Assembly: GCA_020137815.1 (NCBI GenBank)
Contig: CM035358.1
Coordinates: 4,898,001 to 4,962,000, forward strand
DNA length: 64,000 nucleotides
Reading direction: 5' to 3'
DNA from: Hormiphora californensis
Lineage: Eukaryota > Animalia > Ctenophora
In this document: one piece after another, positions 23,674 to 45,933 of the stretch
Layout of the letters: the number at the start of each line of letters is the position of its first letter
How positions within the stretch are numbered: position 1 is the first letter of the stretch
Notes under the pieces: model-generated
The model's input: the letters and a program-made list of their open reading frames with translations, nothing else
Told to the model about the DNA's origin: nothing
The model's database searches: none
Translations under genes and position numbers: made by a program

Positions 23674-26600
23674 TTATCGCCGGTTGTTGGAGTGAGTGGA
23701 GAGGAATTCGTCGACAAGCGCTGAATGAGCCCTCGAGTCCAACTGAAATAGAGGAGGTTAATTTGGGGAATTCTTCATGGCACAGTGTCACTGTCAGGCG
23801 AATAAATTAATTTGGGGAAGATTTTGAGTAAATATTTGGAGTTCAGGGATGATTATTACTCATAACAAGAGGGGTGGGATGTAATTGAGGGCTCAGTATT
23901 GTTTTGTAACTGTTATGAGGGGTGGCAAAATTCGTTGAGAACAGTTGTTTTATGTGTGTCGCAGCACAACTGTAAAGAATTTGGGTAGGTTGGTTAACTG
24001 TAAAGAATTTGGGTGGTGCAGTAAATCTTTTAATTTCAACTATTATCTACCCAGCTAGTAGTATAATTACAACGCCGTGTAATTACCGCTCTCCAAGTAA
24101 TTACCGCTCTCCACTATAACGGTATAACTACGATACTTAGCATTATATTTACCACAATAATTATACCACATACCGGGTAATTACCAGCTACTTCACAGAT
24201 AATCACTGTTATTATTCTACTAAATTGGAGGGAGGGAGGGAGAGAGAGAGAGAGAGAGAGAGAGAGAGAGAGTGAGCGAGAGAGAGAGAGAGAGAGAGAG
24301 AGAGAGAGAGGAGGAGAGAGAGAGAGGAGAGAGAGGAGGAGAGAGAGTGAGAGAGAGAGAGAGAGAAAGAGAGAGAGAGCGAGAGCGAGAGAGAGAGAGA
24401 GAGAGAGAGAGAGAGAGAGAGAGAGAGAGAGAGAGAGAGAGAGAGTGAGAGAGAGAGAAGTTGGCTCATGCCGATTACTGTGAGCCTCATGACCCACGAT
24501 CATATGCTAATCGACATTGGATCGCTGGGTTTTACTACCCTAGCTCTGTTAATCGCCGTTGTTTAGAGGTGTTAAAAGCCGTGACCTACTTGTAACAAGA
24601 CTATTACTCTCTCCCTTTCTCTCTCTATCTCTCTATCACTCTCTCACTCCCCCTGGATTGACTCACTGTATATTATTAAATCGTCTTCTTGAGCACACCA
24701 TACATTCGCTAAAAGTGACACTCCTAATAATGCACTGGCGTAGAAATGTTAGTAACTTGGTTCTTTAAAGTTTCACTTAGTTCCCTTTAGTTAGTGTTTA
24801 AAGTTTCAGTTGGTTGTGTAAACAGTTTACAGTTTCTCTTGGTCCTGTCTGGCAGTGTCGACCCGACCTAAGCACACTGTGTTTTAAGAATCAAAACGGG
24901 GTCTGCAGGCACCGCCAGACAGACTTGGTATGGTATTGCTGGGTTAGACCTAGATCCCCCACCTAGATGCAGGTTGGGAGGACGCGACACAACTTAGCTC
25001 CCCGATCTTCGTTCCCAGGGCAATGCAGTCGTTAGAACCTGTGAGACGGTTCCATAGTCCCCTAATACACGTTGGAACCACACGTTACTACGCACGTGCA
25101 TGTGGTTTAAGTATAATTGGGTTCAGACTGGCGGGCTGTATGCTATACAGGGCGTGGGAAATTAATCTGAATTACCCAAAGCCTTGTAACTAGCTTTCTC
25201 CATACACCATTCATATTCTGTATTTCTCTGTTGTATATTCTGTATTTCTCTGTGGTATATTCTTGGAGCTTGATTAAACGACCGAAAGTCTAACGCTGGG
25301 AAATAGCTCCATATTCATTTTCACCGCCCCTTTCTTCTATGTCTCTCTCTCTCTCTACCTCTCCATCTCTCTCTACCTCTATACCTCTCGCTCTCGACTC
25401 ACACACAGCCGCGGTATTAGTGAAGTACATAGTTGATTTGTGCTGACTACTGTGTAATTGTGTGTCGGACGTTAGTGCACGTTCCTTCTCATTGATATAC
25501 CTCTGCGAGAGAACTTTAGGACCCAAAATTCACTGCAGTCCAAATATAGATAGCCTTATAGTATAAGTTATACTCAACAGCCCTTGATTTTCCAGCCCTA
25601 AAATCTTCAAATTACTGTCGAAGTTCTCCCTCTAGATCACACTGCATTCGCTAAGCCATAGCAGTAGATTTGTTCGTTCACAAATAAGTTGATTTGTCTA
25701 TCATGATCTCCTCCCTGTTCTCTGCCAACAAGACATTCATCCCAGTCAAACATTCTTACTTTGTATATTACTTTTGCTACAGGTGCTATTTTCCTCTCTC
25801 TCACTCTCTCTCTCTCTCTCTCTCTCTCTCTCTCTCTCTCTCTCTCTCTCTCTCTCTCTCTCACTCTCACTCTCTCTCTCTCTCTCTCTCTCTCTCTCTC
25901 TCTCTCACCCGCCAGTATTACCCATGTCATTCTAGAAAATTAGTATGATTATGCACACTGCTTGTAATTGTTGGAGGGAGAGAAAGGGGAACAAGAAGCA
26001 AAAAGCAGGAGAGAGGAATGGGGGCTAAAGAAAGGCTAACTATATAATATGATAGACCAGTGTCACAATGTTCGAGAAAACCAAGAAAGGGATAGAATTA
26101 GAAGGAGAGAAAGAGAGATAGAGAAAGAAAGAGAGAGAGAGAGAGAGAGAGAGAGAGAGAGAGAGAGAGAGAGAGAGAGAGAGAGAGAGAGAGAGAGAGA
26201 GAGAGAGAGAGAGAAAGAGAGCGTGCGAGAGAAAATGGAGACACGGAAAAGAGACAAGCATCATCACTCGATGGTCCTTTTGACATCTCGGCCGCTCTTT
26301 CTCTCCCAACTCCTACAATAGCAGTCTGAGCTGCAGCACCCATCCATCTGTTTTAATCGCCCTCACAGTTTTCCCTCCCTGCTCCTGCTATTGCACCCAG
26401 TCTCAAGCATGCCTCTCTCCCTAACCCAGTCTCCAGCATGCCTCTCTCTAACCCAGTCTCCAGCATGCCCCTCTCCCTAACCCAGTCTCCAGCATGCCTC
26501 TCTCTAACCCAGTCTCCAGCATGCCTCTCTCTCTCTCTCTCTCTCTCTCTCTAACCCAGTCTCCAGGATGCCTCTCTCCCTAACCCAGTCTCCAGCATGC

Positions 26601-44600: not shown

Positions 44601-45933
44601 CCAGGTTGGGCAGGGACAGAAAGTGAGATGTTGATCGGAGGAAAGTGAGGGCTGTGTCAGTTAGATTGATGTGATGGGGTGTTACAATCATTGGGGAAGG
44701 GGTGGATGAGGAGGAGGATTCTTGGGAGGATGACGTCACACGGAGTGCTGCTGTTTTGTGGAGAAGTTGGAGTCGCTGGACCTCCAACCATCTGATATAT
44801 TTCTCGTCCCGGTGAGTGCGGTGCTCCCACGCTTGGGAGACTGATTTAACCCATAGTTTGAGGGGAATCTCGGGTGGTTTGGAGCGGATAATGGCGATTG
44901 AGATTGCTAGTTTCATTGTGTTTAACTGCCATTCGGCCATGTCTTGCTACTAAGTGAGGTGTGTGTGTGAGCGTGGGAGGAAAAGAGAGATGTACATGCG
45001 ACAACAACAAAACAATAACCAACACAATACATGTATTGTGTTTGTTGCTGTTTTTGCTTTGACCACATGTGATTAAAAAAGGGCATGGCATGACAGGACA
45101 AAGCAAAATGGCTAACTTTATCTTCTTAAATACTCTCCGATGAGCCTTTTTTTAAAAAGCACAAAAAATAATAAGTTACTCACCTTCTCCATGGAGATGT
45201 CAACGTTGTCCTGATTGTTACTTTTAATAACAAAGTATCGGGCATCCAGGTTGTGCCAGTCCGGTTTAGATACTGAAATATAGGGTTTTGTAATATTAGA
45301 GGCGGGGTGTTAGGAGTTGTAGTTGGACTGAATTCGATGTTGAAAGAGTGCACATTGAAGTTAGAGCAATAAATACAATAGAGTATTATTTTCACAAACG
45401 TGAAAATGATTTTATAGACACTAAACAAGTTTTTCTTACATCGTTTGGAGATTGAAGCAGTGCTGGATAGATCACTGGCATAGCTGTTAGATCGAGATCT
45501 ACTGTGTCCTGGTGCGAGGATCTTCTTACGCCCTTTATCCGTCGTTTCTTGGTCTGTACGAAAAAGTATGTCTGGATAAAGTTCAGGTTAATGTTGATAA
45601 CAGAAAGTAGATGAGCTTTAGTTGGCTACTCTAATATGGGGGGAGGGGGCTCTAATTTTTATCATTGTTCATTTTGGATCAAAAATGGATCAAACACATC
45701 TATAGATCACATCAATCAGTTATACCCCACAAAACTATAACACCTCTCTCTATACCTCTCTGACCTGAAGATTCTCCGATAATATCATCACCAAGAATAT
45801 CATCCAGAACCATCTCGGAGTTGGTGTTAACAATATCATTGTCATCGTGCTCAGGATCCATCTCATTATCCTCTTCGTTGACTTCCTCCTTGACTACAGG
45901 CTCCTCCTCTGATTTCATCTCCGTATCTGACAT
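23674..45933 (-). CDS. YTHDC1: YTH domain-containing protein 1 (nuclear m6A reader), 12 exons, ~482 aa
   Basis: Phase-consistent GT-AG exons: 45933-45765, 45553-45440, 45272-45184, 43737-43630, 43413-43295, 41254-41170, 40781-40666, 33017-32842, 32624-32395, 32249-32094, 31929-31912, 23742-23674. YTH motifs DARYFVIKSNNQDNV, SVWAT, VILIFSVRESGAFQG, VHWV, NRWNEYKQVKISRDGQEVEPTC; YTHDC1-type C-terminal DILLHGSYMDYVREY and VDEFL. The last two exons are less certain than the rest. Confidence 0.9.
26395..28157. repeat. ~29-bp minisatellite, ~60 copies, containing the telomeric hexamer CCCTAA
   Basis: Unit CCCTAACCCAGTCTCCAGCATGCCTCTCT with a variable (CT)n length. Confidence 0.95.
29241..30064. 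mobile_element. Non-autonomous DNA transposon with G10-run TIRs and 8-bp TSD (824 bp)
   Basis: TIRs G10-ACATGTTAATT...AATTAACATGT-C10; TSD CTCCATAT at 29233-29240 and 30065-30072; subterminal TGTTAA/TTAACA repeats. Confidence 0.9.
30445..31844 (+). CDS. Divergent class-A (rhodopsin-like) 7TM GPCR, 3 exons, 299 aa, nested antisense in the last YTHDC1 intron
   Basis: Exons 30445-30622, 30715-30872 and 31281-31844 splice in frame (900 nt). Seven hydrophobic segments, TM2 Asp (SIDLVLL), TM3 FCNFHGYLF...LKTVFLAKPF, ECL2 Cys, TM7 GNGVFF and a helix-8-like RKFQKFV. Confidence 0.8.
32719..32797. mobile_element. Mini-MITE of the CTGTCAG family (79 bp) in YTHDC1 intron 8
   Basis: CTGTCAG...CTGACAG termini; perfect 8-bp TSD AGGAGTAT (32711-32718, 32798-32805). 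Confidence 0.85.
33493..38070. repeat. Long inverted repeat: ~1.3-kb arms around a ~930-bp spacer
   Basis: Left arm 33493-35840 (interrupted by the nested element) is a near-identical reverse complement of 36774-38070. Confidence 0.92.
33665..34717. mobile_element. Nested 1053-bp element with G7-run TIRs and 8-bp TSD
   Basis: TIRs GGGGGGGATCCCATGGTATACTTTGG; TSD AATGAATT. The empty site is preserved in the opposite arm near 37890. Subterminal 10-bp GTATACCAAA repeats. Confidence 0.92.
38233..39389. repeat. Palindrome with ~490-bp arms and a 24-nt loop (38880-38903); the left arm has an extra ~160-bp tandem duplication
   Basis: TAGTGCGGTAATATGACG...GGTGCTCAAAAT / ATTTTGAGCACC...CGTCATATTACCGCACTA. 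Confidence 0.9.
39449..39503 (-). mobile_element. Solo Tc1/mariner-pogo-like TIR fragment
   Basis: The minus strand reads TA+CAGTCGGACCCCGATTTA, with three CCCCGATTTA repeats. No partner end found. Confidence 0.45.
41823..42866 (+). CDS. Secreted F-type lectin (fucolectin/discoidin-fold) plus CCP/sushi protein, nested antisense in YTHDC1 intron 5
   Basis: Exons 41823-42073, 42230-42474 and 42667-42846/42866. Signal peptide, then ATASS..AIDG..FYHS..WLKLEL..VVIINR..RL..C..C..IAEVMVY, then a four-Cys sushi repeat with W (C..ITC..GSAVITC..W...PSC). The 3' end is uncertain because of a phase-1 donor at 42847. Confidence 0.8.
43992..44940 (-). CDS. MEI4: MEI4-like meiotic double-strand-break factor; intronless, same-strand nested in YTHDC1 intron 3, with one +1 frame break
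   Basis: The N-terminus WQLNTMKLAISIAIIRSKP followed by a coiled coil matches the recalled MEI4 signature (WYLRTSKLALALAIIRSKP). ORFs 44940-44425 and 44552-43992 overlap; removing one base gives ~315 aa. Confidence 0.72.

What the first reader, a model, noticed from the sequence alone, without database searches (positions are those of the whole stretch)
23674..45933. YTHDC1 is a 22-kb host gene carrying three unrelated protein-coding genes in three introns
Seen: manual splicing gives a phase-consistent 12-exon gene. Intron 3 holds MEI4-like (sense), intron 5 an F-type lectin/sushi gene (antisense) and intron 11 a 3-exon GPCR (antisense); intron 7 holds a 6.35-kb foldback element. Established: YTHDC1 is the nuclear m6A reader that controls splicing, export and decay, and nested genes are frequent in some compact invertebrate genomes. 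Inference: triple nesting inside an RNA-processing regulator may couple or insulate the expression of these genes.
Basis: partly seen in the sequence, partly recalled or inferred. Interest (0 to 1): 0.8.

Follow-up and report, generated by a model that had tools for sequence, protein, structure and literature searches.

The report
Comb-jelly YTHDC1 hosts three nested genes
In DNA that is likely from a comb jelly, the gene for the RNA-mark reader YTHDC1 holds three unrelated gene-like reading frames and a stack of jumping-gene remnants in its introns, which is likely an ordinary case of the gene-within-gene layout common in these animals rather than a regulatory device.

Summary
The nesting is real; the claimed significance is not supported. 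YTHDC1 (minus strand, 45933-23674) is about 69% identical to Bolinopsis and Mnemiopsis proteins. The last exon at 23742 matches both orthologs at 20 of 22 residues, so the membrane-protein gene sits inside the host's last intron. MEI4 (intron 3, same strand) is genuine but carries one extra base in this assembly; an unnamed 92%-identical relative is intact. The 'F-type lectin' lacks the fucose-binding motif. The 'GPCR' has seven hydrophobic segments but only lead-level family support. The 6.35-kb 'foldback' is a nest of four elements in intron 8. In the comb jelly Hormiphora 1654 of 14,265 genes are hosts, and one published example holds four genes (PMC8527503); about 1% of genes would hold three or more (my estimate). 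No RNA evidence was obtained for any nested gene, and no synteny. One lead remains: MEI4 has a splice acceptor before it and an AATAAA after it, upstream of the host's m6A-binding exons, so one transcript could yield either product. The scan had not noted this on other DNA.

The parts
45765..45933 (-). YTHDC1 exon 1 (coding part, ATG at 45933)
   Evidence: 32 of 56 residues identical to P0001; contigs of run X2 cover 45761-45846
45440..45553 (-). YTHDC1 exon 2 (acceptor 45553; 45571 is an in-frame alternative)
   Evidence: 27 of 38 identical; the X2 loose end translates like the start of this exon
45184..45272 (-). YTHDC1 exon 3, start of the YTH domain
   Evidence: 24 of 30 identical to P0001
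43992..44940 (-). MEI4, intronless, same strand as host, in intron 3; one extra base near 44515-44525 splits it over two frames in this assembly
   Evidence: Pfam Mei4 35.7 bits, cut-off 25; 93% and 91% identical in two frames to the intact 311-aa P0011; atlas features and structure point to MEI4
44946..44970 (-). Candidate splice acceptor 6 nt before the MEI4 ATG, in frame with host exon 3 (a second AG lies 3 nt further upstream)
   Evidence: score 6.7, second of 81 AGs in intron 3; 15 of 758 background AGs score as high
43889..43894 (-). AATAAA about 100 nt after the MEI4 stop and 157 nt before host exon 4
   Evidence: use not shown
43630..43737 (-). YTHDC1 exon 4 (first cage tryptophan)
   Evidence: Pfam YTH E=5e-10; 34 of 36 identical; intron 4 is skipped in one X2 contig
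43295..43413 (-). YTHDC1 exon 5 (second cage tryptophan)
   Evidence: 35 of 40 identical
41823..42866 (+). Three-exon gene in intron 5 (41823-42073, 42230-42474, 42667-42866), 231 aa: hydrophobic N-terminus, F5/8-type (F-type-lectin-like) domain, one sushi domain
   Evidence: open model; Pfam F5_F8_type_C 27.8 bits (cut-off 28.2), Sushi 26.9 bits (cut-off 20.7)
41170..41254 (-). YTHDC1 exon 6
   Evidence: Pfam YTH E=1.3e-5; 22 of 28 identical
40666..40781 (-). YTHDC1 exon 7
   Evidence: 22 of 39 identical
39923..40021 (-).
   Evidence: tblastn E=4e-9; 24 of 33 identical; its acceptor is the weakest of 16 (leave-one-out score -15.9)
33362..39712 (.). Non-coding transposon nest in intron 8: outer element with G7-starting inverted ends and an 8-bp target duplication; inside it a long foldback (about 33493-38070, arms 34718-35840 and 36774-37896, 99.7% alike), a 1,053-nt element of the same G7/8-bp kind (33665-34717) in its left arm, and a near-palindrome (38233-39389)
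   Evidence: no Pfam hit above cut-off in the 23 ORFs scanned from introns 7-8
32842..33017 (-). YTHDC1 exon 9
   Evidence: 22 of 58 identical
32395..32624 (-). YTHDC1 exon 10
   Evidence: 25 of 77 identical
32094..32249 (-). YTHDC1 exon 11
   Evidence: 38 of 52 identical
31912..31929 (-). YTHDC1 exon 12 (18-nt micro-exon)
   Evidence: 5 of 6 identical
30445..31844 (+). Three-exon seven-transmembrane, GPCR-like gene in intron 12 (30445-30622, 30715-30872, 31281-31844; 299 aa; an in-frame upstream acceptor at 31107 would give 357 aa)
   Evidence: seven hydrophobicity peaks; last 73 aa 78% identical to P0005; atlas lead to 7TM families
29241..30064 (.). About 825-nt element of the G-rich-end, 8-bp-duplication kind in intron 12
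26395..28153 (.). 29-nt tandem array, about 62 copies, in intron 12
23674..23742 (-). YTHDC1 exon 13 (last coding exon, stop at 23676-23674)
   Evidence: 20 of 22 identical to P0001 and P0002, 16 of 22 to P0003; E=9e-16

Best explanation
The window holds a 13-exon YTHDC1 gene, likely from a comb jelly, whose four long introns contain a MEI4 gene, an F5/8-plus-sushi gene, a transposon nest and a seven-transmembrane gene, and these are likely independent tenants that settled in the introns of a housekeeping gene and are likely expressed from their own starts with no special link to YTHDC1. Shown: exon-intron anatomy, ortholog matches, orientation, target-site duplications. Inferred: the four long introns (1.4, 2.0, 6.9 and 8.2 kb, against 145-644 nt for the other eight) grew by insertion of genes and DNA transposons; the spliceosome removes each tenant with its intron when YTHDC1 is made; the two antisense genes, and probably MEI4, are transcribed separately and may receive the comb-jelly spliced leader at the AG just before their ATG; the extra base in MEI4 is more likely an assembly error than a dead gene.
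For: Host model about 69% identical to Bolinopsis microptera and Mnemiopsis leidyi proteins (330 of 477 and 328 of 471 aligned residues), every exon matched. Last exon conserved. In a related-species run one contig skips intron 4 at its splice sites. Nesting is common in comb jellies: 1654 hosts and 2357 nested genes among 14,265 genes, many parallel to the host, 1109 flanked by transposons, a figure example with four in one host (PMC8527503, passages); about 130-150 hosts with three or more expected (my estimate). A glass sponge has 12.4% nested genes (PMC10282587, passages). Most mammalian pairs show no expression relationship (PMC11694760, passages). All 4 genes have an AG within 10 nt of the ATG (scores 9.2, 6.7, 3.4, 5.7). 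An intact MEI4 exists in an unnamed relative, and the window has an unpolished homopolymer stretch at 14381-16200.
Against: No transcript evidence for any nested gene or for the junctions 45184>43737, 43295>41254 and 31912>23742. Independence is assumed, not shown. MEI4's ATG lies only 243 nt after the host's exon 3 donor, which leaves little room for a promoter inside the intron. The base-rate figure is a model fit to another species and includes doubly nested genes. No relative's DNA was obtained, so neither the age nor the conservation of the nesting is known.
Confidence: 0.72

Rival explanations
1. MEI4 and YTHDC1 are alternative products of one pre-mRNA. After exon 3 the transcript is either spliced on to exon 4 (YTHDC1), or taken at the acceptor before MEI4 by spliced-leader trans-splicing or by cis-splicing as an alternative last exon, and cut at the AATAAA behind MEI4. 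The second route drops exons 4-13, which hold the m6A-binding cage, so a meiotic cell would trade the reader for the break-forming factor.
For: Acceptor 6 nt before the MEI4 ATG, second best of 81 AGs in intron 3, in frame with exon 3, 237 nt from the donor, a size like the gene's ordinary introns; AATAAA between MEI4 and exon 4. Leaders were on 56% of Hormiphora long reads (PMC8527503, section 37). YTHDC1 affects poly(A) site choice in mammals in both directions (PMC13672340, passages). Nested-gene expression is linked to premature host polyadenylation at imprinted loci (PMC11694760, passages).
Against: An AG just before the ATG is seen in all 4 genes here and is expected for any trans-spliced gene; its score (6.7) is below the median of the 16 training acceptors (about 9.5). 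AATAAA or ATTAAA occurs 22 times on this strand between 22500 and 46000 outside the transposon nest. No Bolinopsis or Mnemiopsis YTHDC1 isoform seen (8 sequences in clusters 1-3, 479-506 aa) is a fusion, though a fusion would fall outside those clusters. No RNA support. MEI4 is frameshifted in this assembly.
Confidence: 0.18
2. The count of working nested genes is smaller than three: MEI4 here is a broken copy, and/or the 7TM gene is functionally convergent, because a short host isoform ends just after exon 12 and the 7TM 3' end overlaps host exons.
For: One extra base in MEI4. Two AATAAA on the host strand just after exon 12 (31897, 31839). The 7TM stop is 67 nt from exon 12 and the first plus-strand AATAAA after it is at 32325, beyond exons 12 and 11.
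Against: Both MEI4 halves are 91-93% identical to an intact protein with no stop codon; the truncated forms are not in the protein collection (0 of 3 look-ups; weak). The far last exon is 20 of 22 identical to distant orthologs, so the long isoform is likely under selection.
Confidence: 0.15
3. The layout is an assembly artefact (mis-joined pieces or merged haplotypes).
For: The window holds an unpolished stretch (14381-16200) and long repeats in introns 8 and 12.
Against: All 13 exons are in order, on one strand and in phase, and give a complete ortholog. Introns 3 and 5 are short and contain no long repeat. The transposons have intact target duplications on both sides.
Confidence: 0.04

Closest known systems
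Nested intronic genes of the ctenophore Hormiphora californensis (PMC8527503; passages and section 37 read, supplements not available)
   Same: Several unrelated genes inside the introns of one host, on both strands, next to transposons, in a genome with spliced-leader trans-splicing.
   Different: Here the host is YTHDC1 and each gene sits in its own intron; none is doubly nested. Transcript ends are unknown, whereas the paper's calls rest on long cDNA reads. Whether Hormiphora has the same arrangement could not be seen.
YTHDC1 of Bolinopsis microptera (XP_063687892.1) and Mnemiopsis leidyi (KAL5250061.1)
   Same: Same protein layout, about 69% identity, same C-terminal block.
Mammalian host/nested pairs with host premature polyadenylation (PMC11694760, passages)
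   Same: A nested gene can change where the host transcript ends.
   Different: Shown there by expression data, with the host cut upstream of the nested gene; here only sequence signals are seen, and the poly(A) signal lies after the nested gene.
Plant CPSF30 and nematode 'alternative operons' (recalled, not checked in a paper here; CPSF30 appears as a YTH relative)
   Same: Recalled: one pre-mRNA yields products with or without the YTH domain, or either of two genes, by competing splicing and 3' end formation.
   Different: Only an analogy for the MEI4 rival; nothing here shows shared transcription.

Membership tests
YTHDC1 | YTH domain | tested here: met
   Pfam PF04146 on exons 4 and 6 and 147 bits on the ortholog P0001
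YTHDC1 | Closer to YTHDC1 than to YTHDC2 or YTHDF | tested here: met
   P0001 (69% identical to the window model) against solved structures: YTHDC1 E about 1e-40, YTHDC2 1e-28, YTHDF 1e-8; no tree was built
YTHDC1 | Aromatic-cage tryptophans (role recalled) | tested here: met
   Both tryptophans are present, in exons 4 and 5, and align with the solved YTHDC1 sequence through P0001
YTHDC1 | Binds m6A RNA in the nucleus | not testable with these tools
   needs a binding assay
Nested intronic gene | Coding sequence lies wholly within one host intron | tested here: met
   3 of 3 genes
Nested intronic gene | Host transcript is spliced across the nested gene | tested here: inconclusive
Nested intronic gene | Nested transcript, with its ends, lies within the intron | tested here: inconclusive
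   No RNA; the 7TM 3' end may run over host exons 12 and 11
MEI4 | Mei4 family match | tested here: met
   PF13971 35.7 bits, cut-off 25; intact relative P0011: atlas features 0.92-0.94 with 202-207 shared, best structure row MEI4, TM 0.52
MEI4 | Intact reading frame | tested here: not met
   One extra base in this assembly; error or real allele not resolved
MEI4 | Acts with REC114 in meiotic break formation (recalled) | not testable with these tools
   no REC114 sequence was available
F-type lectin | F5/8-type fold | tested here: inconclusive
   PF00754 E=3e-6, 27.8 bits, just under the cut-off of 28.2, from exon 1 alone; no solved-structure hit below E=0.07
F-type lectin | Fucose-binding motif HX(26)RXDX(4)R/K (PMC5297725) | tested here: not met
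   Only a loose version: longer spacing and glutamate for aspartate. Call it F-type-lectin-like.
GPCR (class A-like) | Seven membrane-spanning segments | tested here: met
   Seven hydrophobicity peaks in the 299-aa model
GPCR (class A-like) | Match to a 7tm family or fold | tested here: inconclusive
   No Pfam 7tm hit on the 3 separate exons. Atlas: GPCR clusters at 0.88-0.93 but only 109-140 shared features, and the top row is a bacterial hypothetical cluster. Model of exon 3 is poor (pLDDT 57) and fold searches gave nothing clear.
GPCR (class A-like) | DRY and NPxxY motifs (recalled) | tested here: not met
   Not present in the translation; the protein is at most a divergent, chemoreceptor-like 7TM
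Non-autonomous DNA transposon (foldback / MITE) | Terminal inverted repeats and target-site duplication | tested here: met
   3 elements with G-rich ends and 8-bp duplications
Non-autonomous DNA transposon (foldback / MITE) | Superfamily assignment by transposase | not tested
   No transposase ORF found; G-rich ends with 8-bp duplications recall Merlin or hAT (from memory, not checked)

The most novel reading that the evidence does not exclude
YTHDC1 and MEI4 are two outcomes of one transcript: spliced-leader trans-splicing (or cis-splicing) onto the acceptor before MEI4, plus cleavage at the intronic AATAAA, swaps the nuclear m6A reader for a meiotic break-forming factor. Since YTHDC1 itself steers poly(A) site choice in mammals, it could guard its own intron 3 and keep MEI4 off outside meiosis, a self-contained animal counterpart of the way a YTH protein silences meiotic RNAs in fission yeast.
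Probability: 0.12. Interest if true: 0.65.

Novelty: new member of a known kind. Interest (0 to 1): 0.25.

Why it matters
As it stands the locus is a useful annotation: a corrected 13-exon comb-jelly YTHDC1, and a comb-jelly MEI4 that standard gene finders could miss because it is nested and frameshifted in this assembly. Full-text searches found no paper with 'ctenophore' and 'YTHDC1' or with 'MEI4', 'REC114' and 'ctenophor'. Triple nesting itself is expected in these animals. It would matter more if MEI4 shares the host's transcript, because that would tie an m6A reader to entry into meiosis through gene layout and give a concrete case of how same-strand nested genes are processed in a trans-splicing animal, which PMC8527503 leaves open.

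Tried and rejected
No whole genome is held for the window, so copy number and genome-wide nesting could not be counted. No RNA holder was listed among the 2 runs found. Laid on 41600-46300, run X1 gave one 36-nt piece; run X2 (RNA is a guess, all 6 records under 90% alike) covered only parts of host exons 1, 4 and 5; its lack of cover on MEI4 and the lectin-like gene is no evidence. Metagenome scans gave no locus (0 of 240 for MEI4; 0 of 372 for YTHDC1). The MEI4 searches found only the cluster of P0004 (1 of 118 and 1 of 2396 candidates), no Bolinopsis or Mnemiopsis MEI4, so synteny by accession order could not be read. An intron joining the two MEI4 frames was considered and rejected: every candidate removes at least 67 nt, while the intact relative runs straight through. 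The 7TM search gave 2 hits; P0006, a repetitive pigeon protein, was set aside as spurious. The single-sequence fold of 7TM exon 3 was poor and matched nothing clearly (no E<=0.001; best Z 7.1, rmsd 5.2, 80 aligned). A search for further nested genes scanned 85 of 92 listed ORFs (5 left out as overlapping known exons, 2 from the right end of the transposon); 3 gave hits below cut-off, none credible. Rfam: 0 matches. The 209-codon frame running on from exon 7 into intron 7 is made of short tandem repeats and was rejected as a gene. A search for YTHDC1 with MEI4 returned 9 papers (8 listed); by title and abstract start none concerns nesting, and several concern fission-yeast mei4, which I recall is a different gene.

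
Full report
Organism and host gene. A search with the frame that holds exon 4 returned 3 of 22 candidates: Bolinopsis microptera YTHDC1-like, a Mnemiopsis leidyi protein and an unnamed protein. The window is therefore likely comb-jelly DNA; no genome is held for it. Comparison with the three orthologs then showed a further matching block at 40011-39919 (E=4e-9). The corrected model has 13 exons, 12 GT-AG introns and 515 residues; it is identical at 330 of 477, 328 of 471 and 268 of 459 aligned positions and scores better against all three orthologs than the 12-exon version. 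The added exon has the weakest acceptor of the 16 used for training, so it may sometimes be skipped. The ortholog P0001 matches solved YTHDC1 at about 1e-40, YTHDC2 at 1e-28 and YTHDF at 1e-8.

The decisive point for nesting. The last coding exon lies 8,169 nt beyond the 18-nt exon 12. It matches the Bolinopsis and Mnemiopsis C-termini at 20 of 22 residues, with E=9e-16 against 0.43 for the next best place in the window. The long isoform is therefore likely real and the 7TM gene lies within its last intron. Against a simple picture: two AATAAA follow exon 12 on the host strand, so a short isoform is possible, and the 7TM gene's first downstream AATAAA lies beyond host exons 12 and 11.

RNA evidence is thin. 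Two runs were listed, neither on record as RNA. On 41600-46300, run X2 (a related species; all 6 records under 90% alike) has one contig that skips intron 4 at its splice sites and two contigs whose loose end at exon 1 translates like the start of exon 2 from acceptor 45553.

MEI4 (intron 3, same strand). The first frame matches Pfam Mei4 above its cut-off. An unnamed, intact 311-aa protein (P0011; its cluster has 2 members on contigs of 1,259 and 1,590 nt) is 93% identical to the first frame and 91% to the second, and its atlas neighbours by features and structure are MEI4 clusters. The window's copy spans 949 nt from ATG to stop, one more than a multiple of three, with the shift at 44515-44525 beside a short C run. 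With no stop codon in either half and an unpolished stretch elsewhere in the window (mean run length 3.7 against 1.4), I judge an assembly error more likely than a dead gene; this is inference.

Lectin-like gene (intron 5, antisense). Three exons give 231 residues: a hydrophobic start, an F5/8-type domain just under the Pfam cut-off on exon 1 alone and a sushi domain above it. The fucose-binding motif given in PMC5297725 (passages) is not met. No homolog search was run for this protein.

7TM gene (intron 12, antisense). Three exons give 299 residues with seven hydrophobic peaks. Its long open frame was not reached in 500 shuffles, and the last 73 residues are 78% identical to an unnamed fragment, so it is likely a real gene. 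The GPCR label rests on topology and an atlas lead whose shared-feature counts are low and whose top row is bacterial; Pfam, the fold model and both fold searches were uninformative.

Transposon nest (intron 8). The 6,351-nt element begins and ends with G7 inverted repeats and has an exact 8-bp target duplication; a 1,053-nt element of the same kind has jumped into the left arm of an inner foldback whose 1,123-nt arms are 99.7% alike, and a near-palindrome of about 1.15 kb follows. A third G-rich element lies in intron 12. No transposase and no further nested gene appeared among 85 of 92 listed ORFs; Rfam gave 0 matches.

Is three special? In Hormiphora 1654 of 14,265 genes host 2357 nested genes, 484 doubly nested, many parallel to the host and 1109 beside transposons, and the figure example shows four in one host (PMC8527503, passages; supplements not available). 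Fitting a truncated Poisson or geometric law to those two counts gives about 130-150 hosts with three or more, roughly 1% of genes (my estimate, another species). A glass sponge has 12.4% nested genes, and its authors call about 10% nested exonic bases normal across animals (PMC10282587, passages). In human and mouse most pairs show no expression relationship, though some change host isoforms (PMC11694760, passages). The three tenants here belong to meiosis, the cell surface and membrane signalling, with no shared pathway. The plain reading is independent tenancy (0.72).

The one lead. MEI4 starts 243 nt after the host's exon 3 donor. An acceptor 6 nt before its ATG is the second best of 81 AGs in the intron and in frame with exon 3; 15 of 758 background AGs score as high. 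An AATAAA follows MEI4, 157 nt before exon 4. Both cage tryptophans are encoded in exons 4 and 5, so any transcript that ends after MEI4 makes no m6A reader. Spliced leaders were on 56% of Hormiphora long reads (PMC8527503, section 37), and mammalian YTHDC1 shifts poly(A) site use in both directions (PMC13672340, passages; the paper on suppression of proximal sites was seen only as a title in its reference list). A fission-yeast YTH protein removes meiotic RNAs (PMC5807050, search listing only). Against: all 4 genes have such an AG, the matrix rests on 16 sites, the hexamer is common, and there is no RNA or synteny support. I give a shared transcript 0.18 and the full feedback reading 0.12.

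Verdict. Observation partly confirmed with corrections; interpretation partly supported. A new member of a known kind, interest 0.25. Searches that found nothing in print or in the scan: 0 papers; 9 papers, none on nesting by listing; no earlier finding.

Noticed in passing
window 46505-50696 (+): A MutL-family mismatch-repair gene (PMS1-like by my recall; Pfam DNA_mis_repair E=5e-5) starts head-to-head with YTHDC1, 572 nt from its ATG, suggesting a shared two-way promoter.
   Followed up: partly
window 50880-63000: Compact neighbours: ASF1 (+), a flotillin (-) and a two-domain cytidylyltransferase, PCYT2-like by my recall (-).
   Followed up: partly
window 14381-16200: Garbled homopolymer-run sequence (mean run 3.7 against 1.4 elsewhere), likely an unpolished long-read segment; single-base errors in this assembly should be expected.
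   Followed up: partly
window 29241-30064, 33362-39712, 33665-34717: Three non-coding elements with G-rich inverted ends and exact 8-bp target duplications, one inserted in another element's arm. Superfamily not determined.
   Followed up: partly
window 34718-35840 and 36774-37896: 1,123-nt inverted arms, 99.7% alike, 933 nt apart, inside the host pre-mRNA; they would form a very long RNA duplex during transcription.
   Followed up: no
window 16286-17017 (+): A 244-codon frame with protein-like sequence and no Pfam match; gene not modelled.
   Followed up: no
window 3816-6090: Tandem arrays of 132 nt (3 exact copies) and 475 nt (4 copies, 96% alike).
   Followed up: no
window 20261-20337, 23068-23335, 32711-32805: A short dispersed repeat of 60-100 nt occurs after the host's last exon and in intron 9.
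   Followed up: no
window 9341-9543, 17276-17558, 20947-21251: Three further short palindromic elements of 200-300 nt.
   Followed up: no
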